8,465 bases of DNA from a virus (Duplodnaviria > Heunggongvirae > Uroviricota > Caudoviricetes): the IMG/VR virus record IMGVR_UViG_2671180454_000010; one strand, 5' to 3'. Shown piece after piece: positions 1 to 8,465 of the stretch. Position 1 is the stretch's first letter, and every line of letters starts with the position of its first letter. The translations under genes and the position numbers were made by a program. The notes under the pieces are model-generated. The model saw nothing but the letters and a program-made list of their open reading frames with translations. It had not been told where the DNA came from and made no database searches.

Positions 1-20
1 CTGGCAAAAGTGTAGCGGTA

Positions 21-1298
21 TTAAGCGCAGCTATTTAGTGAATTAAGTAAATTAGTCAGTGACCTTGTAAAGTCTGTTAAACCTTCCTGTGAACCATCGA
101 ACATTAAGGCCAGATTATTATTCCATGAATTACTTAAGCGGCCTAACTGCGTCTGAGTAGAGTTAATAATCTTTTCCCATCCACCAGCTTTATCAATCAT
201 CCTTCCCATTTCAGCGGATACTTTAGGAAAAACATCTTTAGAAAGAACCTTACCGTCTTTCATGGCCTTGTCTAATTCTTCCGTAGTCATCCCAAGACTT
301 CTGGCAAATAACTGAAAAGCACCTGCCATTCTGTCACCTAATTGACCGCGTAGCTCTTCAGCCTGAATCTTTCCTTTAGATGCCATCTGCTCGAAAGCTT
401 TTAAAATCCCGTTAATTTCATCGGTGCTTAGCCCCATTAATCTGGATGTACCAATCACATTAGAAAATAAGGATTCTTTCTGGTCTGCATTCATATCACC
501 AGCACCAGCGGAAAACTTAGCAAAACTGCTTAATGTTTCAATCTGGTCTACACCACTACTATCAGCAAGATTCTTAACAAATTCTGTAGCTCGTTTAGCA
601 CCTTCATCACCTAAAACGAATTGTGCCGCTCGTTGTGATGCTTCTTTTTTCAGACCAACCTCCATAATCCGCCTGTAAGCTTCTAAGGCTGTCTGAAAAC
701 TATAAATGGCTGTACCTGCTTTGATTGCACTCGTAGCTAATACATCCAGACTATTTGAAGCATTTTCACTGTGATTATTTTTGCTGGTGGTCTTGTTAAA
801 CTTAGAAAGTGTTTCACGAAGAGACTGATTTAACTTTGCTAACTCACGATTAAAAGTTTCGTTTCCAAGTGTCTTGGATTTACTGCTTAAGCTGTAATAC
901 TGGCTTTTAAAATACTTCTCAAGCATAGGATTAAAGTCACGAAGCTTGCTCATATTCGCTGAGTAAGCTGCTGTGATTGCTCTGCTTCCGCTAATTCGTG
1001 GCTGTCTTGGTTGTCTAAGTGGCTTTAAAGTATCCTCAATTTCAGTTTTAATCTTAAACGCTCTAGTGTTTTTAAGACGCTGCTCAATCTTGGAAACAGT
1101 TTTATCGACATTTCTTTCCATTAGTTTGAGAGAATCATTTAAAGGCGTAGGATTAACTCTAAACGACTTATTCAATCGCTTCTCAATTCGTGATGCTACC
1201 TGCATCGTTTGTTTCTCGGCTTTTTCCAAGCCTTTTAAAACTTTCTGAGAGTTAAAACTTAACTCAATCAGAAAATCATCAACTTTAAATTGTGCCAT
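21..1298 (-). CDS. tape-measure-domain protein (phage tail length tape-measure-like), 425 aa
   Basis: ATG at 1296-1298 preceded by AAAGAGGTGA 6 nt upstream; stop at 21-23. The C-terminal half (SKGKIQAEELRGQLGDRMAGAFQLFARSLGMTTEELDKAMKDGKVLSKDVFPKVSAEMGRM) matches, from memory, the conserved tape-measure domain pattern; the N-terminal half is coiled-coil-like. Shorter than typical tape-measure proteins and ends 20 nt from the window edge. Confidence 0.5.
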   Translation of the reverse strand: MAQFKVDDFLIELSFNSQKVLKGLEKAEKQTMQVASRIEKRLNKSFRVNPTPLNDSLKLMERNVDKTVSKIEQRLKNTRAFKIKTEIEDTLKPLRQPRQPRISGSRAITAAYSANMSKLRDFNPMLEKYFKSQYYSLSSKSKTLGNETFNRELAKLNQSLRETLSKFNKTTSKNNHSENASNSLDVLATSAIKAGTAIYSFQTALEAYRRIMEVGLKKEASQRAAQFVLGDEGAKRATEFVKNLADSSGVDQIETLSSFAKFSAGAGDMNADQKESLFSNVIGTSRLMGLSTDEINGILKAFEQMASKGKIQAEELRGQLGDRMAGAFQLFARSLGMTTEELDKAMKDGKVLSKDVFPKVSAEMGRMIDKAGGWEKIINSTQTQLGRLSNSWNNNLALMFDGSQEGLTDFTRSLTNLLNSLNSCA

Positions 1299-1388
1299 TC
1301 ATATTTTTCACCTCTTTAAGCGTGTTGTACGTAAATTCTATTTTTCAGTGTGGGTATTAGCTTTACAGATTTCACGTAGCACACATAC

Positions 1389-1430
1389 AAAAAAAGGGAG
1401 AGCTACCGATGTCACTCGATAATCTCTCCC
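1389..1430 (-). terminator. candidate intrinsic terminator downstream of the 69-aa ORF
   Basis: Stem GGGAGAG (1396-1402) pairs with CTCTCCC (1424-1430); on the minus strand it is followed by U7 (complement of A-run 1389-1395). Loop is long (21 nt). Confidence 0.45.
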
Positions 1431-1454
1431 CGTATTTACCCAACCAATTCTTTT

Positions 1455-1664
1455 TTAATGTCGGACAAGATAATGTAATTCCGTTTCACCTATGATTTGA
1501 GCATCAGAAGGAATACGGTCAATACACCACTTTGGAATCTTGCGTGTTTTTGGTTTGTGTGAGGTGATAACTTGACGTTTGTTTTTAATTCTTAAGGCTG
1601 GCTTAGTTTGTAACTTTAAGTTTTCACAAACAGACCGAATAGTCTCTAAACGTTCTTCAAACAT
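1455..1664 (-). CDS. hypothetical small basic protein, 69 aa
   Basis: ATG at 1662-1664 with AAAGAGGTGA 5 nt upstream (same Shine-Dalgarno as the tape-measure-domain gene); starts 22 nt after the stop of the 236-aa ORF, so probably co-transcribed. Lys/Arg-rich. Confidence 0.5.
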   Translation of the reverse strand: MFEERLETIRSVCENLKLQTKPALRIKNKRQVITSHKPKTRKIPKWCIDRIPSDAQIIGETELHYLVRH

Positions 1665-1686
1665 TAATCACCTCTTTAATTCATAA

Positions 1687-2397
1687 TCAAACAGCCTTGC
1701 TATACTTCTGAGAAATCTTCGTTAACTGCTCAATATCAGCCATCAAAGCAATCTTCTTCTGCGACTCATATTCACTAACAAGTTCTTTCATAGTATCAAG
1801 TTCTTTTTTAAGCTTTTGCTTTAACTTATCCAGTTTACCGGAATAATGCTTAGTCAAATTAGCTTCAGCTAACTGAAGAATCTCTTCATCTGTTTTATCA
1901 GTCATCAGAATAAATTGACCAGAACCCCTTAATGCTTGTCTGACATCAATTAACCGGAACCCTTCAGGGATACTTTGAAGAACTTTAGGAACGTCTTCAA
2001 TCGCTGTACCAAAACCATCATTAAAGTTTCCTTCATAATAGATAAACGGGTTTGACTTAATCTCGTAAGCAATATCATATTCTGAAGGTTTCGAGGTTTC
2101 TTCGAAGTTCTTAACAGCATCGTAAGCGACATCAAGTCTAAGACGCTGTGATTTTAAAGCTGGGTAATATTCACGCTCAAGCTCAAATAGTGCTTCAGTT
2201 TTGCAGATATCAGGCATTTCTTGAGGCTCAGGAGACACAAAGGAAATTACCTTTGGTGACATCTTTAGCTCTTGCTCAAGCTCAATGCGCTTGTCATGCT
2301 CTTGACGCTGAATAGTATGTAGCGGATGTTCACCCTGTGGTGACCAGTCTCCGAAGCTATCAACCTTTTTACCGTTAATATATAAATCGTTTGTCAT
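1687..2397 (-). CDS. hypothetical acidic protein, 236 aa (paralog of 4041..4652)
   Basis: ATG at 2395-2397 with AGAGGAAA 7 nt upstream. Collinear homology to the 203-aa ORF: shared PEP motif, DG(F/W)G, then 13 residues to (I/L)PEG.R, then DK(S/T)..E(L/I)...A...L; coiled-coil-like Lys/Glu-rich C-terminus. Confidence 0.6.
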   Translation of the reverse strand: MTNDLYINGKKVDSFGDWSPQGEHPLHTIQRQEHDKRIELEQELKMSPKVISFVSPEPQEMPDICKTEALFELEREYYPALKSQRLRLDVAYDAVKNFEETSKPSEYDIAYEIKSNPFIYYEGNFNDGFGTAIEDVPKVLQSIPEGFRLIDVRQALRGSGQFILMTDKTDEEILQLAEANLTKHYSGKLDKLKQKLKKELDTMKELVSEYESQKKIALMADIEQLTKISQKYSKAV

Positions 2398-2424
2398 TAT
2401 AATTTCCTCTAAGTGTGGTTATTT

Positions 2425-2496
2425 CTTAATAGAGCACCTTCAACGCCAATACACTTAGAAGATGACTTAACGATTTATTAAAGATGCTCTATTAAG
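2425..2496 (-). promoter_or_regulatory. long-range inverted repeat in the leader of the 236-aa ORF
   Basis: Perfect 12-bp arms CTTAATAGAGCA (2425-2436) and TGCTCTATTAAG (2485-2496) separated by 48 bp, between the upstream hairpin and the ribosome-binding site. Confidence 0.3.
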
Positions 2497-2528
2497 AAAA
2501 GCCCTAAACATAATCTGTGAAGGGCTTT
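2497..2528 (-). terminator. GCCCU/AGGGC hairpin with U-tract (hairpin A, module 1)
   Basis: Stem GCCCT (2501-2505) / AGGGC (2521-2525), extendable to AAAGCCCT/AGGGCTTT; minus-strand transcript continues UUUUCUUAAU. Loop 15 nt. Near-identical to the hairpin at 4768-4791. Confidence 0.35.
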
Positions 2529-2600
2529 GGAGGTTTGCTTATAACGTTAACGAAGTTTCAGGAAAACTTTCTTTAAAAGCTCTGTTTAAAAACTCTTAAA

Positions 2601-2627
2601 GAAAGCCCTAACTCATGATTAGGGCAA
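2601..2627 (-). terminator. GCCCUAA/UUAGGGC hairpin with U-rich tail (hairpin B, module 1)
   Basis: Stem GCCCTA (2605-2610) / TAGGGC (2620-2625) with a 9-nt loop; on the minus strand followed by UUUCUUUAAG. Immediately 3' of the conserved core. Confidence 0.35.
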
Positions 2628-2633
2628 AGCTGT

Positions 2634-2745
2634 AAAGGATTCAATAATGAATGAACAAAGACTTTTTGAGATAGCCTCTCAGACCAACCTGAAAGGCTAG
2701 GACGAAAAGCATTGCACCTTTCCAACTCAGAATATCCATTCATCG
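2634..2745 (-). repeat. conserved non-coding element, copy 1 (candidate structured RNA or leader)
   Basis: 112 bp aligning to 4792..4905 with 4 substitutions and one 2-nt indel. The two copies do not share a reading frame across the indel, so the conservation is not protein-coding. Lies upstream of the 236-aa ORF. Confidence 0.7.
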
Positions 2746-2755
2746 CGCGGGCTAG

Positions 2756-2788
<33 letters not shown>

Positions 2789-2832
2789 ATGAGGTGTACT
2801 GGCAATAGCGGACACTACCATTTGTTCTTTTT

Positions 2833-3651
2833 TTAAGCAGCCATCTGATGATATTTTTCCCTGAAGGCTGCCGGGGAGATATTCCCCAGACGAGAGTGAC
2901 GACGCTGACGATTGTAGAAAATCTCAATGTATTCCCGTATTACTGAGATGGCTTCATCCCGGTTATTAAAACGATAGTGGCTCAGGCTCTCATTTTTCAG
3001 CGTTCCCCAGAAGCTTTCCATCGGAGCGTTGTCGTAACAGTTACCTTTACGCGACATTGATGTTTTCAGACCAGACTGCTCCTGTATGACCCGGTAATCG
3101 TATGCGCAGTACTGTGAACCTCGATCAGAGTGGTGGATTAGCCCGGCAGGTGGGCGCTGGCTCCTGAGCGCCATAAACAGGGCTTTACCTGTCAGCTCTT
3201 TTGTCATGCGCTCTCCCATGGCGTAGCCGACAATTTCGCACGTATAAACATCTTTGATGCCAGCGAGGTACAACCATCCCTCCTGTGTGGCAACATACGT
3301 CAGGTCCGCCACCCAGACCTGATTTGGTGCTGTAGGAGCGAACGTCTGGTTCAGCAGATTTGGCGCAACTGGCAGATTGTGGTTCGAGTTCGTAGTCGCT
3401 CTGAACTTGCGTTTCTGCTTACAGCGTAGCCTTAGCTCCTTACGAAGACGTGCCAGTCGGTCACGACCAACGATGATGCCATTCTCTGCCAGCTCCGTCT
3501 GGAGCCGCCGGGTTCCATATGTTTCGCGAGTGCGGATATGTGCCACCTTAATCTCCAGTTTTAGCCGCTCATCACTTTGTTTTCTGTCTGAGGGTTCATG
3601 CTGTACCCAGTTGTAATAACCGCTCCTGGATACACCAAATACCTGACACAT
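2833..3651 (-). CDS. IS3-family transposase OrfB (catalytic DDE domain), expressed as OrfAB fusion
   Basis: 272 aa from the first ATG. The same frame is open upstream to the A7 slippery site and is -1 relative to orfA. Integrase-like catalytic region typical of IS3-family OrfB (…HSDRGSQYCAYDY…RKGNCYDNAPMESFWGTLK…). Confidence 0.85.
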   Translation of the reverse strand: MCQVFGVSRSGYYNWVQHEPSDRKQSDERLKLEIKVAHIRTRETYGTRRLQTELAENGIIVGRDRLARLRKELRLRCKQKRKFRATTNSNHNLPVAPNLLNQTFAPTAPNQVWVADLTYVATQEGWLYLAGIKDVYTCEIVGYAMGERMTKELTGKALFMALRSQRPPAGLIHHSDRGSQYCAYDYRVIQEQSGLKTSMSRKGNCYDNAPMESFWGTLKNESLSHYRFNNRDEAISVIREYIEIFYNRQRRHSRLGNISPAAFREKYHQMAA

Positions 3652-3686
3652 CGCTTCAATGGGAAATTGTTGTCGCCATTGTTCGA

Positions 3687-3989
3687 TTAACGCGTATTTT
3701 TCAGCGACTCCTGTGCAAAATACGCTGTTGCTTTTTTTAATATATCTCGCTCAAGGCGAGCTTCATTTAACGCCTTACGCAGTTGCAGAATTTCAGATTC
3801 CAGTTCAGCCACCGTGCGGGAACCAGGAGTACCGAGCCCTTTTCTGGCGGCGGTAACCCATTGTCCTAAAGTGCCTTCAGGAAGAGATAATCGGGAAGCG
3901 CCTTCACTGATCGAAAGTTGATTTTCAGGAACCGTTCTGACAGCTTCGGCTTTGAACTCTTTAGAGTAACGTTGGGTTTTTCTGCTCAT
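3687..3989 (-). CDS. IS3-family transposase OrfA (HTH plus leucine-zipper-like region), 100 aa
   Basis: ATG at 3987-3989 with AGGAGC upstream. C-terminus (…ILQLRKALNEARLERDILKKATAYFAQE…) typical of IS3-family OrfA; ends just after the frameshift hairpin. Confidence 0.85.
   Translation of the reverse strand: MSRKTQRYSKEFKAEAVRTVPENQLSISEGASRLSLPEGTLGQWVTAARKGLGTPGSRTVAELESEILQLRKALNEARLERDILKKATAYFAQESLKNTR
3692..3739 (-). promoter_or_regulatory. programmed -1 ribosomal frameshift site of the IS (A7G slippery run plus downstream hairpin)
   Basis: Minus-strand TTA AAA AAA G (complement of T-run 3732-3738) in the orfA frame; slipping -1 reads …SNSVFCTGVAEKYALIEQWRQQFPIEAMCQVFG… into OrfB. A 9-bp stem GCGUAUUUU/AAAAUACGC (3692-3725) starts about 6 nt downstream. 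Confidence 0.6.
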
Positions 3990-4040
3990 TATTAGCTCCT
4001 TCTGATGCCATTCTATTTCAGGAAGGAGTGTCCGTTAAAC

Positions 4041-4652
4041 TCAGGCTACCTCACTAATCAGCTTAGCCAGTCTTGATTTCAGCAAATTAATCTCATTTTC
4101 TCTTGCTTTCATCAGTTTCTCTTTGGCAATTTCTTCAAGCTCAGCTTGTGATTTATCAGCAACAATTAGAGACAGTCGATGTGGTGCTCTGACAGCTCTT
4201 TCTGTACGAACAACTCTTTGACCTTCTGGTAAATCTGCAATCACTTTACCAATCTCTACAGGGTCATACCCCCAACCGTCACGGTCTAGTCGAGAGAAAT
4301 AAGCATAAGAATTGGTTTGAAGCTCCATCGAAATAACCATTTCGTCAATTTCGTCTTCAAGCTTGGACTGAATTTTCTCGTAAACACTTCTCATTGCTTC
4401 TTGAGAGTCTTTAATAGCTTGGAAATATCGGCGTTGTAGCTTCAACTTCAAATCAAGTTCACACCGTTCGTTCATAGAAAAATCAATTTCAACTCTTGGA
4501 ATCTCGAGTGGTTCTGGTGGAATATATGGACCTTTATTTACTTCGTGTGATTCCCGCCAAGCTCTATCAAAAGATTCACGCAAAGTTAATTCGTGAATAT
4601 CAAGTGCACTTGGTCTGTGTTCGATAAGCATTTCATGTTCATTTCTAATCAT
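4041..4652 (-). CDS. hypothetical acidic protein, 203 aa (paralog of 1687..2397); 3' end formed by the IS terminus
   Basis: ATG at 4650-4652 with AAGGGGTGA 5 nt upstream. Homologous to the 236-aa ORF (see above). The last 4 codons and the stop (4041-4053) lie inside the IS terminal inverted repeat, and the protein is about 30 residues shorter at the C-terminus than its paralog. Confidence 0.6.
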   Translation of the reverse strand: MIRNEHEMLIEHRPSALDIHELTLRESFDRAWRESHEVNKGPYIPPEPLEIPRVEIDFSMNERCELDLKLKLQRRYFQAIKDSQEAMRSVYEKIQSKLEDEIDEMVISMELQTNSYAYFSRLDRDGWGYDPVEIGKVIADLPEGQRVVRTERAVRAPHRLSLIVADKSQAELEEIAKEKLMKARENEINLLKSRLAKLISEVA

Positions 4653-4691
4653 TCGTTCACCCCTTAGTTTATTTGTTATTTCAATTTATAG

Positions 4692-4752
4692 AAGCACACT
4701 CAGCAATCAGAGGTGAAGAGTCTGACTGAACAAGAACCTGCCAAGTGTGCTT
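4692..4752 (-). promoter_or_regulatory. long-range inverted repeat in the leader of the 203-aa ORF
   Basis: Perfect 9-bp arms AAGCACACT (4692-4700) and AGTGTGCTT (4744-4752) separated by 43 bp; same position and geometry as the 2425..2496 repeat but unrelated sequence. Confidence 0.3.
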
Positions 4753-4791
4753 TTAAAAACTGAAAAAGCCCTAAACATTTCTGTGAAGGGC
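4751..4791 (-). terminator. GCCCU/AGGGC hairpin with U-tract (module 2)
   Basis: Stem GCCCT (4768-4772) / AGGGC (4787-4791), 14-nt loop; minus-strand transcript continues UUUUUCAGUUUUUAAAA. Directly abuts the conserved core. Confidence 0.4.
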
Positions 4792-4905
4792 AAAGGATTC
4801 AATAATGAATGAACAAGAGTACTTTTTGAGATAGCCTCTCAGACTAACCTGAAAGGCCATGACGAAAAGCATTGCACCTTTCCAACTCAGAATATCCATC
4901 CATCG
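4792..4905 (-). repeat. conserved non-coding element, copy 2 (candidate structured RNA or leader)
   Basis: 114 bp, about 95% identical by eye to 2634..2745; upstream of the 203-aa ORF. Predicted terminal helix 5'-GAUGGAUGGAUA (4904-4893) with UGUUCAUUCAUU-3' (4815-4804), plus internal hairpins GAAAGG/CCUUUC and GAGA/UCUC. Confidence 0.7.
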
Positions 4906-4910
4906 GATTA

Positions 4911-4942
4911 TTGAAAGAAAAATAAGAGAGAATTGCTCTCCC
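4911..4942 (-). terminator. hairpin GAGAG-CAAUU-CUCUC with U-rich tail
   Basis: Stem 4926-4930 / 4936-4940; the minus-strand transcript continues UUAUUUUUCUUUC. Could terminate the upstream 107-aa ORF transcript or be the first structure of the element's own transcript. Confidence 0.35.
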
Positions 4943-4951
4943 ATAATTAAA

Positions 4952-4980
4952 ATTATGCCATGCTTAAGGTTATTTGTCAA
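4952..4980 (-). promoter_or_regulatory. candidate sigma70 promoter facing the copy-2 element
   Basis: Minus strand TTGACA (4980-4975), 17-nt spacer, CATAAT (4957-4952): 11 of 12 consensus positions. Predicted start near 4945. Confidence 0.35.
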
Positions 4981-5081
4981 CAGCTTTTTAACAGGTTGAT
5001 AACATCAATTCTTATTTACCGCATTGTTAATAATACAACCAACAAATAAGCCAAGCAACGTCCAAGCAATTATTAAACCCA

Positions 5082-5405
5082 TTAGTGAACCCTCACAGAA
5101 TCCGTCACCAGAATATTATCACTGTACAGGATTGTCACAGCACCTTTCAAAAATTGCTCTGGGGAAATACTGTATATGTTCGTTTGCTCGATAACCAATC
5201 TTTTCATGTTGCTGTCTGTAATTGGTAGCATCATTCGAGGCTCGTTAAACTCCACCGACTGAATAAAGTCAGAGATGTTTTCTACATTATCAGCCATCAG
5301 CTTTAGTAATTTATCAAAATTAATTGCGATACCTGCATCAATGAAGCTTTGCACCATCATAGCAGTGTCGTTATCAACCATAATTTGCATTGGGTAATTA
5401 TTCAT
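5082..5405 (-). CDS. hypothetical protein, 107 aa
   Basis: ATG at 5403-5405 with AGGAG 8 nt upstream. The longer ORF to 5528 would start at TTG with no ribosome-binding site and would span leader hairpins, so the internal ATG is preferred. Confidence 0.55.
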   Translation of the reverse strand: MNNYPMQIMVDNDTAMMVQSFIDAGIAINFDKLLKLMADNVENISDFIQSVEFNEPRMMLPITDSNMKRLVIEQTNIYSISPEQFLKGAVTILYSDNILVTDSVRVH

Positions 5406-5572
5406 TTTTAAATCTCCTATGAAACACACCTCAGACCTCTTAAAATAGCCATTCTGAGGCCAGTAACCATGCGGGTTACAGAGGGAGTTGCACTGGCTGG
5501 TAAGGTAATTTATCAAATTAAGGTGCAACTCTGCCTGTAAAGTGCATTCTACCGTTTCTTAGATGGTTATTT

Positions 5573-5992
5573 TTAATTGTCTTTATTAATCAATGGCTTA
5601 ATGTAGAAATACTGTCTCCGTGAAATACCATATTTTTCTGTAATGTATCGCTGAGATTGACCAGCATTTATGGCCTGAGTGATATCATCACGGTTATAGC
5701 GGTTACCACGGGATTTATATTTGTCACCATCCACATCTTCTGAGGTATTGAAGTCTTCAATCAGCTTAATTGCATCGTGAAGGTCATCTTCTGAGGCATA
5801 ATCGAAGGTATGGATAATCTCAAAATCACCAGTATCTGCTGGTGCATTCTTCCATCTGGAGAAGCGGGATTTTAATTGCTGGTGTGTGAAGGGTTCAGCA
5901 TTACGAGTTAAATCTTTCCATGTTCCGTTATTCTCACGGACAAGGTGACCTCTATGGCGATAAAACGCATGATAATCAAATGTGCATAGCAT
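5573..5992 (-). CDS. hypothetical protein with C-terminal HTH-like segment, 139 aa
   Basis: ATG at 5990-5992 overlaps the stop of the upstream RHH ORF (TAATG). C-terminal …DDITQAINAGQSQRYITEKYGISRRQYFYIK… looks like a helix-turn-helix. Confidence 0.55.
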   Translation of the reverse strand: MLCTFDYHAFYRHRGHLVRENNGTWKDLTRNAEPFTHQQLKSRFSRWKNAPADTGDFEIIHTFDYASEDDLHDAIKLIEDFNTSEDVDGDKYKSRGNRYNRDDITQAINAGQSQRYITEKYGISRRQYFYIKPLINKDN

Positions 5993-6282
5993 TAAACCCC
6001 CAGCTTATCCGCCAGTTGATGAACCTTGGCACTCAACACCTGAATCATTGAGCAACCTGCCACTGCGGACTGTGCTTTGAGTAGTTCCAGTTGGCCCGTT
6101 GTGATTCTGATGGCCTTAGAACCCTCTGCAACGCCCTTGATAGCGTCAAACGGTGTAAGGGCTATGTGTTCCTTCAAAATCTCACCAACAAGTGCTGTGT
6201 GGCTCATGGCTGGGTATTTGTCTTTGATTGCTGCCAGTCTGGAATATGCCTCTGGCAAAAGGCGTGTAACTGTGTGTCTCAT
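5992..6282 (-). CDS. ribbon-helix-helix-like DNA-binding protein (apparent tandem RHH), 96 aa
   Basis: ATG at 6280-6282 with AAGGAAAA upstream. Two strand-helix-helix-like halves (TVTRLLPEAYSRLAAIKDKY… and IRITTGQLELLKAQSAVAG…). First gene of a minus-strand operon leaving a divergent promoter region. Confidence 0.5.
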   Translation of the reverse strand: MRHTVTRLLPEAYSRLAAIKDKYPAMSHTALVGEILKEHIALTPFDAIKGVAEGSKAIRITTGQLELLKAQSAVAGCSMIQVLSAKVHQLADKLGV

Positions 6283-6340
6283 TAAATTTTCCTTCTTAAA
6301 ATCTTTGACTTATAACTAACTTTAACATATTTATAACATA

Positions 6341-6369
6341 TTGTCAACAACTCATTTACATGTTAATAT
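6341..6369 (+). promoter_or_regulatory. candidate sigma70 promoter for the 61-aa ORF, in a back-to-back promoter region
   Basis: TTGTCA (6341-6346), 17-nt spacer, TAATAT (6364-6369). The complementary strand reads TTGACA at 6347-6342, a perfect -35 for the divergent RHH operon. Direct repeats TAACATATT at 6323-6331 and 6334-6342. Confidence 0.45.
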
Positions 6370-6420
6370 GGTTGTAGGGGGCTGATACAGGTCATTCCCT
6401 TTGATAAATAAGGGGAATTA

Positions 6421-6606
6421 ATGGGCTTTCTTGAAACAATTGCTGAATCTCACAGATTCGCAAGCTTAGGTTGCTTTGTGTTTCTGGTGCTTCTTGTGTA
6501 TCAGCTTTTAAAAATGATTATCGCCAGAAGTACACGATTCAATTTCAGCATTAAGCTTTTCAAATATGAAATCACAATTACGATTGATGATGGTAAAACA
6601 AACTAA
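6421..6606 (+). CDS. small single-pass membrane protein, 61 aa
   Basis: ATG at 6421 with AAGGGG 5 nt upstream; hydrophobic segment LGCFVFLVLLVYQLLKMII. Stop overlaps the stop of the convergent minus-strand ORF 6603..6893. Confidence 0.45.
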   Translation: MGFLETIAESHRFASLGCFVFLVLLVYQLLKMIIARSTRFNFSIKLFKYEITITIDDGKTN

Positions 6607-6893
6607 CGTTTTGTGATAATATTGGTGGCCTTTAAGTTGCTGGGGTCACCGTCTTTTAATCGTAGCTGGTGGATTGAATTCCAGATATCAAAATGATACA
6701 GCACTGCAAACCTCAAAGCGTCAATCTTTAAATCTGTCACACCATCGTAAAAGAAATAACCCCTCCCTTCTTTCTTTGGTCTAATCCGGTAAACTTCCCC
6801 GTGAGTATCCTTCATAAGATGACCTTCACGAGAAATGCTGTAACGCTTTAACAGGTAATCTTTGTATCTCTTTTCACCGTGATATTCTTTCAT
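6603..6893 (-). CDS. small protein with degenerate HNH/AP2-like fold (candidate DNA-binding module), 96 aa
   Basis: ATG at 6891-6893 with GGAGGAA upstream; start overlaps the upstream stop (TAATG). Pattern …EGRGYFFYDG…ALRFAVLYHF…RLKDGDPSNLKATN resembles HNH_3/AP2-type domains, but the expected catalytic His-x-Asp-Gly-Asn region reads LKDGD. Confidence 0.4.
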   Translation of the reverse strand: MKEYHGEKRYKDYLLKRYSISREGHLMKDTHGEVYRIRPKKEGRGYFFYDGVTDLKIDALRFAVLYHFDIWNSIHQLRLKDGDPSNLKATNIITKR

Positions 6894-7267
6894 TACTTAA
6901 TTCCTCCACCGGCAAAATACATCTTCGGTTTAATTTTTTGCTTCTTGTCATCCTGAGTTTGTTTCTTTTTCGGTGAAAGATAATAATCATCTTCACTGTC
7001 ATCGAATGGGTCTAAACCCGATACTTTGTTCTTTTGTCTTGCAAGCTCGAATCTCTTTTTCTTCTCTGCCCTCTTAATGGCTTTTTCACGTTCATCCTCT
7101 TCATCATCGAAGGGGTCCAACTCATCATCAGTGGCGGGGCACTGTGTGTTTTTATGGTCACTATCAACACTCACATCAGTGATTTCTCTGTCTTGTTTAG
7201 AAGTCTTTTTAGAGCTTACTTCAAGGTCAGATTCATTCATAGAGAGAAAATCATTTAATTCATCCAA
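6893..7267 (-). CDS. acidic protein with duplicated LDPFDD(E/S)EDD motif, start uncertain
   Basis: Frame is open from about 7375 to 6893 with no ATG before 7238-7240; the ORF track starts at TTG 7265-7267; neither has a clear Shine-Dalgarno. Two near-identical acidic motifs (DELDPFDDEEDE, SGLDPFDDSEDD) and a Lys-rich stretch. Confidence 0.45.
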   Translation of the reverse strand: MDELNDFLSMNESDLEVSSKKTSKQDREITDVSVDSDHKNTQCPATDDELDPFDDEEDEREKAIKRAEKKKRFELARQKNKVSGLDPFDDSEDDYYLSPKKKQTQDDKKQKIKPKMYFAGGGIK

Positions 7268-7334
7268 AGAAAGAAAGTCATCTTCTTTAATATCATCATT
7301 AAGTCCAGTCTCTTTATTCTTATCTGTAATATTA

Positions 7335-7366
7335 TTATCTAATGTTTTATCTAATAACTTATCTAA
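7335..7366 (-). repeat. tandem TTATCTAA repeats (3 copies, 12-bp period)
   Basis: TTATCTAA at 7335-7342, 7347-7354 and 7359-7366, plus a degenerate TTATCTG at 7320-7326; AT-rich, next to the TGACA-N3-TGTCA cluster. Confidence 0.5.
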
Positions 7367-7379
7367 ACTCTAACACGGG

Positions 7380-7437
7380 TGACATTTTGTCACTACCCCC
7401 ATGACATTTTGTCACTGGTAGTGGTGTCATTTTGTCT
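7380..7437 (-). promoter_or_regulatory. cluster of three TGACA-N3-TGTCA inverted-repeat sites (operator or iteron-like)
   Basis: TGACAtttTGTCA at 7380-7392 and 7402-7414, degenerate TGTCAtttTGTCT at 7425-7437; centre spacing 22-23 bp. Flanking inverted repeat CACTACC (7391-7397) / GGTAGTG (7417-7423). Overlaps the stop codon of the adjacent HTH gene. Confidence 0.55.
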
Positions 7438-7782
7438 TACTGAGGCTGCAACTTCCTGTGATGTAGGTCTTACAAGTAATTCCGGCTTATCATCCAGTGT
7501 GAATACACGATAAGTGCTTTGACGCCCCTGATTCTTTTGCACCTGAATTAAACCGTGTTTCTCAAGTGTCTCAATGGCTCTGATTGCTGTTCTCTTTGAT
7601 ACACCAGCCATATAAGCGAGATGGTCAATACTTGGTGAATATGATTTGTATTTCTCTTCATAGAAGTCACAGCTATGGACCATGACCATATAAATCAATC
7701 TTGCTGCTGCGTTAATTTCTTCTGAAAGTTGAGAGATTCGCACATCAAATTTATAAAACTGATTTGGGTTATATTTAGACAT
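7393..7782 (-). CDS. winged-helix/HTH DNA-binding protein, 129 aa
   Basis: ATG at 7780-7782 with GAGGTAA upstream. …LAYMAGVSKRTAIRAIETLEKHGLIQVQKNQGRQSTYRV… reads as helix-turn-helix plus wing. Family not identifiable by eye; could be a repressor or a replication-initiator N-domain. Confidence 0.6.
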   Translation of the reverse strand: MSKYNPNQFYKFDVRISQLSEEINAAARLIYMVMVHSCDFYEEKYKSYSPSIDHLAYMAGVSKRTAIRAIETLEKHGLIQVQKNQGRQSTYRVFTLDDKPELLVRPTSQEVAASVRQNDTTTSDKMSWG

Positions 7783-8145
7783 TCATAAATTACCTCATAC
7801 GTGAAAAGGCCAACCGGATAAAACCGATTAGCCTGTGTGATTAAAATATCTGGGGGATTGATGGACTGATAAAGAAGTCCATGCCTGAAACAGTACGATG
7901 ATTAAAACGCTGAGGTATACCCTGAATGAGAGGTTAATATACGCCAACCATCTGACACCTCCCCAAGTGTTACCACTTCAAGACATGAACTTTTTTATCA
8001 GCCCATATAGAAACTATAACAGATGCGATTATAAATTGCAACAATTATTTCACAGAATGATTACTGATTGGTCATTTATTGTTCACAGGGATACTTCTTA
8101 ATATCTGAATCACCTATCTTGTAAATGACCATATTTATGAGAATT

Positions 8146-8465
8146 TTAGCTCAACCTTTGAGCAATCCTGTATGACGTGCTCAGAGGCATTCTGAGAGCA
8201 TCTGCAATGCACTTAATGGGTTTTCCTTGCCTGTATAGTTTTATGAAGCTGTCGAGCGTCTCAGGTGGGTAAATGGTGGGTCTTCCTCTTAGTCCACCAC
8301 GGTTAATGATGGTTAACGGTAGCAATGTATCAGCACAGCAAACCATCTGTGTAATTTCATGCTTACGTGGTTCTTTTTTAAAAACAACGACTGCACTTGG
8401 AAACGGTGACCTAATAGTAAGCCTGTTATGCCCTGCTGGTGGAAGGTATTTAACTGCACGATGAA
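8146..8465 (-). CDS. 5'-partial ORF with resolvase-type (HTH_7-like) C-terminal DNA-binding segment
   Basis: Frame is open from the window edge to the stop at 8146-8148; the internal ATG at 8344-8346 has no Shine-Dalgarno. C-terminus …GRPTIYPPETLDSFIKLYRQGKPIKCIADALRMPLSTSYRIAQRL follows the GRP…IA…ST.YR pattern of serine-recombinase HTH domains; the upstream part does not look like a recombinase E-helix. Confidence 0.4.
   Translation of the reverse strand, partial: HRAVKYLPPAGHNRLTIRSPFPSAVVVFKKEPRKHEITQMVCCADTLLPLTIINRGGLRGRPTIYPPETLDSFIKLYRQGKPIKCIADALRMPLSTSYRIAQRLS

What the first reader, a model, noticed from the sequence alone, without database searches (positions are those of the whole stretch)
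6893..7375. Acidic protein with duplicated LDPFDD motif and no canonical start
The frame is open for about 480 nt but the first ATG is 45 codons in and lacks a Shine-Dalgarno; the alternative TTG start also lacks one. The N-terminal extension is encoded by the TTATCTAA repeat DNA. The protein carries two near-identical acidic motifs (DELDPFDDEEDE and SGLDPFDDSEDD) and a Lys-rich segment, and its stop overlaps the start of the HNH-like ORF. Short acidic repeats of this kind are often protein-docking peptides, but I cannot name a partner.
Basis: partly seen in the sequence, partly recalled or inferred. Interest (0 to 1): 0.45.

Follow-up and report, generated by a model that had tools for sequence, protein, structure and literature searches.

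The report
Broken half of a replication-initiator gene
The "acidic protein without a start codon" is the stranded back half of a lambda-O-like replication initiator gene that carries its own replication origin inside it, and in this Shigella sonnei-type copy the gene has been broken by loss of one origin repeat plus a 7-bp insertion.

Summary
The open frame is 7369..6896, with its stop at 6895-6893. It is not a separate gene.

In E. coli relatives one continuous 301-323 aa CDS runs from the ATG at 7782, which has a GAGG Shine-Dalgarno, to this stop. That CDS has three parts:
- an N-terminal winged-helix domain;
- a stretch that is also DNA-functional: four 22/23-bp dyad-symmetric iterons, then an AT-rich region holding the 3x TTATCTAA repeat;
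- a mostly disordered acidic/basic C-terminal half carrying the two LDxFDD motifs.

This is the lambda O / ori-lambda layout.

The window lacks one 23-bp iteron (3 instead of 4) and has a 7-bp insertion that creates the TAG bounding the acidic frame. Only reversing both lesions in silico restores a 301-aa ORF. The truncated 129-aa N-terminal ORF occurs on at least 1000 S. sonnei contigs, so the split is real, not an assembly error. NCBI's annotation pipeline (PGAP) marks a comparable 3-iteron E. coli allele as "frameshifted".

In intact alleles the C-terminal half is under purifying selection (dN/dS about 0.3-0.4). It probably recruits the replication machinery; the partner is unknown.

Verdict: an ordinary pseudogene fragment of an uncharacterised lambda-O-like replicon. 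Interest is low to moderate.

The parts
7393..7782 (-). Truncated 5' half of the initiator gene. It encodes a 129-aa ORF with a winged-helix DNA-binding domain. It ends prematurely at TAG 7395-7393, inside the iteron array.
   Evidence: ORF. Pfam HTH_36, 31.2 bits against a cutoff of 25. PHROG 'replication initiation protein / O-like' families, E 1e-11 to 1e-8; the exact sequence is on at least 1000 contigs named S. sonnei.
7792..7795 (-). GAGG Shine-Dalgarno, 9 nt upstream of the real start codon (ATG 7782-7780).
   Evidence: Read from the sequence.
8013..8041 (-). The only sigma-70-like promoter match upstream of the initiator gene (TTGCAA-17-TATAGT). No such match lies inside the gene.
   Evidence: This is a consensus match only.
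7423..7439 (-). Iteron 1 (AGACAAAATGACACC on the coding strand).
7420..7421 (.). Junction where one 23-bp iteron copy (TACCAGTGACAAAATGACACCAC) is missing relative to intact 4-iteron alleles.
   Evidence: Alignments A1 and A2; repair test.
7400..7416 (-). Iteron 2 (GTGACAAAATGTCAT), with dyad symmetry GTGAC-N5-GTCAY.
7378..7394 (-). Iteron 3 (GTGACAAAATGTCAC), the last before the AT-rich region. Iteron start-to-start spacing is 22-23 bp.
7367..7373 (-). 7-bp insertion (TTAGAGT; placement ambiguous by a few nt) that is absent from the E. coli alleles examined. It contains the TAG (7372-7370) that closes the acidic frame upstream.
   Evidence: E. coli matches span 167 or 144 nt, that is, without the 7 bp.
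7280..7366 (.). AT-rich region of the embedded origin (18-27% G+C), including 3x TTATCTAA at 12-bp spacing (7335-7366). It is the likely DNA-unwinding element. In intact alleles it is also translated, as ...LDKLLDKTLDNN...
   Evidence: The same arrangement is seen in L001. The other two specificity types (L007, L008) have four iterons at the same position, and in L008 the following stretch reads as AT-rich.
6893..7369 (-). Orphaned 3' half of the initiator gene: 158 open codons plus a stop. This is the finding itself.
7091..7126 (-). First acidic motif, DELDPFDDEEDE.
   Evidence: It is variable among alleles (DEMDPFDD, DELPDVDLDD).
7022..7090 (-). Lys/Arg-rich segment REKAIKRAEKKKRFELARQKNKV, predicted helical in the homolog.
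   Evidence: helix 240-261 of P0121; low-confidence model..
6986..7021 (-). Second acidic motif, SGLDPFDDSEDD. Its L-D-x-F-D-D core is invariant in the 19 sequences of alignment A3.
6903..6907 (-). GGAGG Shine-Dalgarno of the downstream ORF, lying inside the codons for the conserved ...AGGG tail of the initiator.
   Evidence: Read from the sequence. G302 and G303 are invariant in A3.
6603..6893 (-). Downstream 96-aa ORF, whose ATG overlaps the initiator's stop (TAATG). It has no Pfam or PHROG match.
   Evidence: cluster of 1335 members, all named hypothetical.

Best explanation
The acidic ORF is the out-of-frame 3' half of a replication-initiator gene built like lambda O, with its origin inside the coding sequence.

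The intact gene, as seen in E. coli, encodes a protein of about 306 aa. Its parts, in order, are:
- a winged-helix DNA-binding domain;
- a linker encoded by four dyad-symmetric iterons spaced 22-23 bp apart;
- a segment encoded by an AT-rich region that includes the 3x TTATCTAA repeat;
- a largely disordered acidic/basic C-terminal half with conserved short motifs, including LDxFDD twice.

Inferred mechanism, by analogy with lambda O and iteron plasmids: dimers of the N-terminal domain bind the iterons, the adjacent AT-rich DNA opens, and the C-terminal half recruits the helicase-loading and replisome machinery. That machinery must come from the host or a helper phage, because the island encodes no helicase, loader or primase.

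In this window, a Shigella sonnei-type chromosome, two lesions split the gene: loss of one 23-bp iteron and a 7-bp insertion. What remains is a 129-aa DNA-binding stub and a 158-codon tail with no start codon or ribosome-binding site. The tail is therefore most likely not translated, and this replicon is dead.

Shown: homology to intact genes, the two lesions, the iteron and AT-rich anatomy, co-variation of the DNA-binding domain with the iterons, and purifying selection on the C-terminal half in intact alleles.

Inferred: iteron binding, origin function, and the partner-recruiting role of the C-terminal half.
For: 1. One continuous CDS of 306-313 aa ('helix-turn-helix domain-containing protein') covers both window ORFs in E. 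coli chromosomes, at 88-94% DNA identity. The full-length query gave 2220 hits at E <= 0.001, and the 120 best are all 301-323 aa.

2. Alignment A1 shows the window lacks exactly one 23-bp iteron and has 7 extra bp. Only reversing both lesions restores a 301-aa ORF.

3. The N-terminal part matches Pfam HTH_36 above its cutoff and PHROG 'replication initiation protein / O-like' families.

4. There are 3 iterons (4 in intact alleles) at 22-23 bp spacing, followed by DNA of 18-23% G+C with 3x TTATCTAA.

5. Three N-terminal specificity types exist (P0121, P0245, P0246). Each has a different set of four iterons at the same position in the gene: GTGACAAAATGTCAC, AACCAGAATTTGGTTAC and TTACTCAGTCAGTCAA. 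All three are joined to a homologous C-terminal half.

6. In proteins that read through the array, iteron number changes only in pairs (2, 4 or 6; 45 nt = 15 codons). Alleles with 3 or 5 iterons are split. PGAP labels a 3-iteron E. coli allele 'frameshifted'.

7. dN/dS of the C-terminal half is 0.3-0.4 between divergent intact alleles. The N-terminal half has dN = 0.

8. No in-frame start codon in the tail has a Shine-Dalgarno sequence, and no promoter-like site lies inside the gene.

9. The exact 129-aa stub is on at least 1000 S. sonnei contigs, so the break is genuine.

10. The lambda precedent: ori-lambda lies within the O gene, with four inverted-repeat iterons bound by O dimers followed by a 40-bp A+T-rich region (PMC5043065). 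Stx phages carry six iterons instead of four (PMC7466680).
Against: - No experiment shows that this family replicates anything.
- Pfam's own lambda-O family (Phage_rep_O) was not hit. Only the generic HTH_36 and PHROG O-like profiles were.
- No P-, DnaC- or DnaB-like gene is present in the island, so the partner of the C-terminal half is unknown.
- The structure model has low confidence (mean pLDDT 44), so 'disordered' is a weak statement.
- Low-level translation of the tail from the TTG or ATG, or by reinitiation, cannot be excluded from sequence alone.
- Odd-iteron, split alleles recur in several lineages. This leaves open that split forms retain some role.
Confidence: 0.88

Rival explanations
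1. It is a genuine separate small acidic protein, translated from the TTG at 7267 or the ATG at 7240 (124 or 115 aa), whose LDPFDD repeats act as docking peptides.
For: The frame is still open for 158 codons, with no further stop. S. sonnei annotations list a 115-aa and a 124-aa 'hypothetical protein' here. Many database entries start near the iterons with 'MSPVLDK...'.
Against: No candidate start has a Shine-Dalgarno sequence. The 120 best matches to a full-length homolog are all fused 301-323 aa proteins. The one 'MSPVLDK...' entry whose contig was read lies on a contig that ends within the iterons, and other short entries come from odd-iteron alleles. An exhaustive search with the tail found only 11 clusters, and the complete ones are 312-317 aa fusions. 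The window's 7-bp insertion even puts the iteron ATG used by other split alleles out of frame.
Confidence: 0.05
2. The two halves are still joined in S. sonnei by recoding, that is, programmed frameshifting or stop-codon read-through, so a full-length initiator is made.
For: The tail is in the -1 frame relative to the stub. One database protein (P0046) reads through the region, with Q at the TAG.
Against: The stub's stop (7395-7393) lies 5' of the stop that closes the tail's frame (7372-7370), so no single shift can join them. The DNA behind P0046 is identical to the window and does not translate to that protein under the standard code. The Q at the TAG is therefore a gene-caller recoding artefact.
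Confidence: 0.01
3. The split is functional rather than decay. Gain or loss of a single 23-bp iteron acts as a reversible slip-strand switch between a fused, active initiator and a DNA-binding-only stub that occupies the iterons and represses or excludes replication of related elements.
For: Alleles with 2, 3, 4, 5 and 6 iterons all exist. Odd numbers always break the frame and even numbers keep it. Three-iteron alleles occur on at least two sequence backgrounds, with the middle iteron ending CATG or CATA. The stub keeps its start, its Shine-Dalgarno sequence and a fully conserved sequence.
Against: The window also carries a 7-bp insertion that iteron slippage cannot reverse. The same island carries an IS3-family insertion, and a related 3-iteron island is likewise riddled with pseudogenes, which fits plain decay. 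Four iterons dominate: 35 of the 40 listed complete-genome matches.
Confidence: 0.06

Closest known systems
Bacteriophage lambda O protein with ori-lambda inside the O gene (lambdoid O/ori modules, including Stx phages)
   Same: - An N-terminal DNA-binding domain is followed, within the same reading frame, by four dyad-symmetric iterons and then an AT-rich region, then a C-terminal half (lambda layout from PMC5043065).
- Iteron number varies in frame-preserving steps. Stx phages carry six iterons instead of lambda's four (PMC7466680); here 2, 4 and 6 are seen.
- The specificity module (DNA-binding domain plus iterons) is swapped among relatives while the C-terminal half stays homologous. The same is known for lambdoid phages (my own knowledge).
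   Different: - Pfam Phage_rep_O is not matched. Only HTH_36 and PHROG 'O-like' profiles are.
- No P-like helicase loader follows the gene. The next gene is an unrelated 96-aa ORF.
- The C-terminal half is an acidic/basic, apparently disordered region with LDxFDD motifs. No match to any profile-library family was found for it.
- The host element is an island of about 11 kb with a serine recombinase, not a lambdoid phage. The initiator protein has no homolog in the phage, plasmid or IMG/VR collections searched, apart from a 31% winged-helix match.
Iteron-plasmid initiators (RepA of pSC101/pPS10, pi of R6K, RepE of F, TrfA of RK2)
   Same: A winged-helix initiator, directly repeated iterons at a spacing of about two helical turns (22-23 bp), and an adjacent AT-rich unwinding region.
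   Different: In those plasmids the iterons lie outside the rep gene and the Rep proteins have two winged-helix domains (my own knowledge). DnaA boxes are usual there (my own knowledge). Here there is a single winged-helix region, the iterons are inside the coding sequence, and DnaA boxes are not enriched.
Acidic C-terminal tips of single-stranded DNA-binding proteins (E. coli SSB ...DFDDDIPF) used as docking peptides
   Same: Short clusters of acidic residues with an aromatic residue in a disordered region, e.g. LDDFDDSDDDFTF in some alleles. The comparison rests on my recollection of the SSB tip sequence.
   Different: The SSB tip works through its free C-terminal Phe carboxylate (my own knowledge). 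Here the motifs are internal and are followed by about 30 basic residues. No binding was tested.

Membership tests
Independent protein-coding gene (the finding as proposed) | Its own start codon with a ribosome-binding site | tested here: not met
   No in-frame ATG, GTG or TTG has a Shine-Dalgarno-like sequence within 20 nt.
Independent protein-coding gene (the finding as proposed) | Homologs exist as separate genes of similar length | tested here: not met
   The full-length homologs examined are 301-323 aa fusions. The short entry whose contig was read ends within the iterons, and other short entries come from odd-iteron alleles.
Lambda-O-type initiator with an internal origin | N-terminal origin-binding winged-helix domain related to O-like initiators | tested here: inconclusive
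   PHROG 'replication initiation O-like' and 'replication initiation protein' families match at E 1e-11 to 1e-8, and Pfam HTH_36 is above its cutoff. Pfam Phage_rep_O is not matched.
Lambda-O-type initiator with an internal origin | An array of dyad-symmetric iterons inside the coding sequence, followed by an AT-rich region | tested here: met
   Three iterons in the window and four in intact alleles, at 22-23 bp spacing, followed by DNA of 18-23% G+C. Different iterons sit at the same position in the other two specificity types.
Lambda-O-type initiator with an internal origin | The C-terminal domain binds a P-type helicase loader encoded next to it | tested here: not met
   No P-, DnaC- or DnaB-like gene is in the island. 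The C-terminal half matches no profile-library family. Binding itself cannot be tested here.
Lambda-O-type initiator with an internal origin | The initiator binds its iterons and drives replication | not testable with these tools
   Needs EMSA or footprinting and a mini-replicon assay.
Iteron-plasmid Rep proteins (Rep_3 / RepA-pi-RepE type) | Two tandem winged-helix domains, with the iterons outside the gene | tested here: not met
   No Rep_3 match. The model shows one winged-helix region, residues 7-93. The iterons are inside the CDS. There are no plasmid homologs.
DnaD-like primosomal / helicase-loader proteins | A DnaD N-terminal winged helix plus a DnaD/DnaB C-terminal domain | tested here: not met
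   Only sub-threshold DnaD_N (14 bits against 27) and PHROG 186 matches, both limited to the winged-helix region. There is no C-terminal domain match.
Frameshifted pseudogene | Frame-breaking indels relative to intact orthologs, whose reversal restores the ORF | tested here: met
   A 23-bp loss and a 7-bp gain. Reversing both together restores a 301-aa ORF. PGAP flags an analogous allele as frameshifted.

The most novel reading that the evidence does not exclude
Two readings go beyond plain decay, and my evidence does not exclude them.

1. Iteron parity switch. The origin's 22/23-bp iterons lie in the coding sequence and only pairs (45 nt) preserve the frame. Single-iteron slippage could therefore be a built-in, heritable on/off switch for island replication. 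The off state would produce a DNA-binding stub that occupies the iterons and blocks related incoming elements.

2. Loader-independent recruitment. The disordered C-terminal half, with its LDxFDD motifs, could recruit host replisome proteins directly, without a phage-type helicase loader.
Probability: 0.08. Interest if true: 0.6.

Novelty: new member of a known kind. Interest (0 to 1): 0.28.

Why it matters
It removes a false 'orphan acidic protein' from consideration. It also assigns a function to a widespread E. coli/Shigella protein family that databases name only 'helix-turn-helix domain-containing protein': it is a lambda-style initiator with its origin inside the gene.

It explains three database observations:
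- draft assemblies can break at this gene, as one Logan contig does, ending within the iterons;
- many database entries for it are 'partial';
- odd iteron numbers always give split genes.

If the intact module is a working replicon, it is a compact one: a single gene of about 0.9 kb containing its own origin, with three ready-made specificity types. It would also make a tractable system for asking how an initiator recruits a helicase when no loader gene accompanies it.

Tried and rejected
- Programmed frameshift or read-through joining the two ORFs. Rejected because the order of the stop codons makes a single shift impossible. The one 'read-through' protein (P0046) comes from DNA identical to the window that does not translate to it, so its Q at the TAG is a recoding artefact.
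- Assembly error. Rejected because the exact truncated ORF is on at least 1000 S. sonnei contigs, with a longest contig of 5.3 Mb.
- Chance open frame across repeats. Rejected: the probability is about 1e-5, and there is homology and purifying selection.
- Homologs in phage genomes, plasmids and IMG/VR viral contigs. None found beyond a 31% winged-helix match in a Parageobacillus phage.
- PDB profile search. Only weak MarR/SlyA winged-helix matches.
- AlphaFold2 model of a full-length homolog. Mean pLDDT was 44, so it was used only for secondary structure and no fold search was run.
- DnaA boxes near the origin. No enrichment.
- Rfam families. None in the window.
- Literature on a small island at yecE. 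Only unrelated Stx prophages at that locus turned up.
- An SSB-tip mimic as the role of LDxFDD. This stays a loose resemblance, because the motifs are internal.

Full report
**Observation**

The feature lies on the minus strand. Translating 7393..6893 gives VTKCHPC*, then 158 open codons (7369..6896), then a stop at 6895-6893.

- The first in-frame ATG is codon 44 (7240) and a TTG is codon 35 (7267). Neither has a Shine-Dalgarno-like sequence in the 20 nt upstream.
- The first dozen codons are encoded by three exact TTATCTAA copies 12 bp apart (7335-7366), in DNA of 18-23% G+C.
- The motifs DELDPFDDEEDE (7126-7091) and SGLDPFDDSEDD (7021-6986) flank a Lys/Arg-rich stretch.
- The stop overlaps the ATG of the next ORF (6893..6603) as TAATG.
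- At this base composition an open frame of this length has a probability of about 1e-5.

**What it is**

Immediately upstream, on the same strand, is a 129-aa ORF (7782..7393). It has a good GAGG Shine-Dalgarno sequence (7795-7792). It matches Pfam HTH_36 above its cutoff, and PHROG families annotated 'replication initiation protein' and 'replication initiation O-like' at E 1e-11 to 1e-8.

The 1.4-kb region matches 151 of 5426 complete E. coli genomes, always on the chromosome, at 80-99% identity; the best full-length match is 93.9% identical. It matches nothing in the phage or plasmid collections.

In those E. coli genomes a single CDS of 306-313 aa, annotated 'helix-turn-helix domain-containing protein', runs from the equivalent of 7782 to the equivalent of 6893. 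A search with the full-length E. coli protein returned 2220 hits at E <= 0.001, and the best 120 are all 301-323 aa. The acidic ORF is therefore the C-terminal half of this protein.

**Why it has no start codon here**

Alignment of the window with three intact alleles shows two differences that break the frame:
- one 23-bp repeat unit is missing, at the junction 7421/7420;
- 7 bp (TTAGAGT, 7373-7367) are inserted just after the last repeat.

The TAG at 7372-7370 that bounds the acidic frame lies inside this insertion.

I repaired the sequence in silico. Restoring the repeat alone, or removing the 7 bp alone, leaves the gene broken. Doing both gives a continuous 301-aa ORF.

The stub's stop (7395-7393) precedes the stop that closes the tail's frame, so no single ribosomal frameshift could join the two. 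A database protein that appears to read through (P0046) comes from DNA identical to the window that does not translate to it. Its Q at the TAG is a gene-caller recoding artefact.

The break is not an assembly error. The exact 129-aa stub is recorded on at least 1000 contigs named Shigella sonnei, with a longest contig of 5.3 Mb. The closest match to the tail (100% identity) is also from S. sonnei.

**Anatomy of the intact gene: an origin inside the coding sequence**

The repeats are 15-bp dyad-symmetric units (GTGACAAAATGTCAC) spaced 22-23 bp apart. There are four in intact alleles and three in the window. They are followed by the AT-rich stretch containing the TTATCTAA triplet.

This is the arrangement of ori-lambda. 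[quoted passage not shown]

An exhaustive profile-free search with the tail found only 11 clusters. The complete members are 312-317 aa proteins, and they have three different N-terminal domains. I fetched DNA for the other two types. Each has its own set of four iterons at the same position in the gene, at 22-23 bp spacing:
- ACCCAACCAGAATTTGGTTACCT (L007);
- TTACTCAGTCAGTCAA (L008).

Each array is then followed by the same conserved C-terminal half, and in L008 the intervening stretch reads as AT-rich.

Co-variation of the DNA-binding domain with the repeats is what an initiator/iteron pair predicts. It is the strongest computational evidence that these repeats are its binding sites.

**Iteron parity**

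I examined the proteins that read through the array. The iteron-encoded peptide is 34 aa (4 iterons) in about 140 of them, 19 aa (2 iterons) in one, and 49 aa (6 iterons) in two. In-frame variants therefore differ by pairs of iterons: 22 + 23 = 45 nt = 15 codons.

Odd numbers break the gene:
- 3 iterons in the window;
- 3 iterons in five complete STEC genomes, where the one fetched (strain 90-3040) is annotated by PGAP as a 'frameshifted' pseudogene;
- 3 iterons in Escherichia sp. MOD1-EC7003, split into 127 + 197 aa;
- 5 iterons in GCA_054690015.1, split into 133 + 181 aa.

Of the 40 complete-genome matches listed, 35 have the 4-iteron length.

Many of the short 'MSPVLDK...' and 'partial' database entries probably trace to contig ends within the iterons or to these odd alleles. 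The one 'MSPVLDK...' entry whose contig I read does end within the iterons. Stx phages offer a parallel: they have six iterons where lambda has four (PMC7466680).

**The C-terminal half**

Between divergent intact alleles its dN/dS is 0.3-0.4, with dS of 0.6-1.0. The first 125 codons have dN = 0 and dS of 0.01-0.1. So the tail is genuine coding sequence under moderate constraint, and the gene is a mosaic.

An AlphaFold2 model of a full-length homolog has low confidence (mean pLDDT 44). It shows a helix-helix-helix-strand-strand winged-helix region at residues 7-93. After that it is mostly coil, with short helices at 178-185 and 240-261; the latter is the Lys/Arg-rich segment.

Conserved elements are:
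- EDDFLSLDELNDFLS;
- SDHKNTQCPATDDE-[LM]DPFDD, which is degenerate in some alleles (ELPDVDLDD);
- the basic helix;
- L-D-x-F-D-D with an acidic run, invariant in the 19-sequence alignment A3;
- a basic tail ending ...KPKMYFAGGG.

The terminal Gly codons coincide with the GGAGG Shine-Dalgarno sequence of the next gene (6907-6903). Part of that conservation may therefore act at the DNA level.

One allele (P0112) has lost everything between the two motifs. Recombination between the similar motif-encoding stretches could explain this.

No library family, PDB sequence or phage protein matches this half.

**Mechanism proposed**

*Shown:* gene structure, lesions, origin anatomy, co-variation, selection.

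*Inferred by analogy with lambda O and iteron plasmids:*
- the N-terminal domain binds the iterons as dimers;
- the AT-rich TTATCTAA region melts;
- the acidic/basic C-terminal half docks the helicase-loading or priming machinery.

The island encodes no helicase, loader or primase. That partner must therefore come from the host or a helper phage. I put about 0.45 on a recruitment role for the tail, and well under 0.1 on any specific partner.

In this window the tail is most likely untranslated and the replicon is inactive. This fits the IS3-family insertion elsewhere in the same island.

**Comparison and novelty**

The module works like lambda O with ori-lambda. Membership of the curated lambda-O family is not established: there is no Phage_rep_O match, no P-like neighbour and an unrelated C-terminal half. 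It differs from plasmid Rep proteins, which have two winged helices, iterons outside the gene and DnaA boxes (one search found no DnaA-box enrichment here).

I class the family as a new member of a known kind, and the window's copy as its pseudogene. Interest is low to moderate.

The finding as stated dissolves into a frameshifted gene. The underlying replicon, the iteron parity rule and the loader-less C-terminal half are modestly interesting and easy to test.

Noticed in passing
window 1-8465; L001 1109-11340; L002, L003, L006-L010: The initiator sits in a compact, conserved chromosomal island of about 11 kb. Its genes are a large serine recombinase, a Dit-like tail protein, a tape-measure protein, about seven small ORFs with no family match, the initiator with its internal origin, and a Dam methyltransferase fused to a resolvase-type HTH. 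The island is found inserted in yecE (DUF72), next to rutG/ymdF, or in mdtG. It has no capsid, terminase, helicase or loader genes. The gene set is much the same in the six or so copies examined, which looks more like a satellite-type element than random prophage decay. I found no paper describing it.
   Followed up: partly
window 2833-3989 (-): An IS3-family insertion sequence: an orfA (HTH_Tnp_1, 3687-3989) and an orfB (rve integrase core, 2833-3651). It lies between two ORFs that look paralogous by eye, 1687-2397 (236 aa) and 4041-4652 (203 aa). This is a further sign that this copy of the island is decaying.
   Followed up: partly
window 8146-8465 (-): The right end of the window is the 3' part of the Dam-HTH_7 methyltransferase gene, which runs off the window. 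It aligns to residues of about 116-220 of the L001 protein. The 66-aa ORF listed at 8146-8346 is only its C-terminal HTH.
   Followed up: yes
window 6603-6893 (-): The 96-aa ORF translationally coupled to the initiator (TAATG) has no Pfam or PHROG match. By eye it resembles a NUMOD4/HNH_3-type endonuclease that has lost the catalytic His (...RLKDGDPSNL...). It follows the initiator in every island copy examined (cluster of 1335 members), so it is a candidate partner of the acidic tail.
   Followed up: partly
window 6893-7782; alignment A1: The gene is a sharp mosaic. The first ~400 nt (DNA-binding domain plus iterons) are nearly identical among the type-1 alleles (dN = 0, dS 0.01-0.1). The 3' half diverges to dS of 0.6-1.0. 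This implies recombination at or near the embedded origin.
   Followed up: partly
L004 656-1189 (Logan SRR22313047): A database protein (P0046) reads Q at a TAG codon, yet its DNA is identical to the window. This is an example of a gene caller applying an alternative genetic code and producing a spurious read-through protein.
   Followed up: yes
L008 3810-4780: The type-3 initiator in this Logan contig is itself split, into a 60-aa ORF and a 259-aa ORF, by a lesion in the N-terminal domain. This is another independently broken copy.
   Followed up: no
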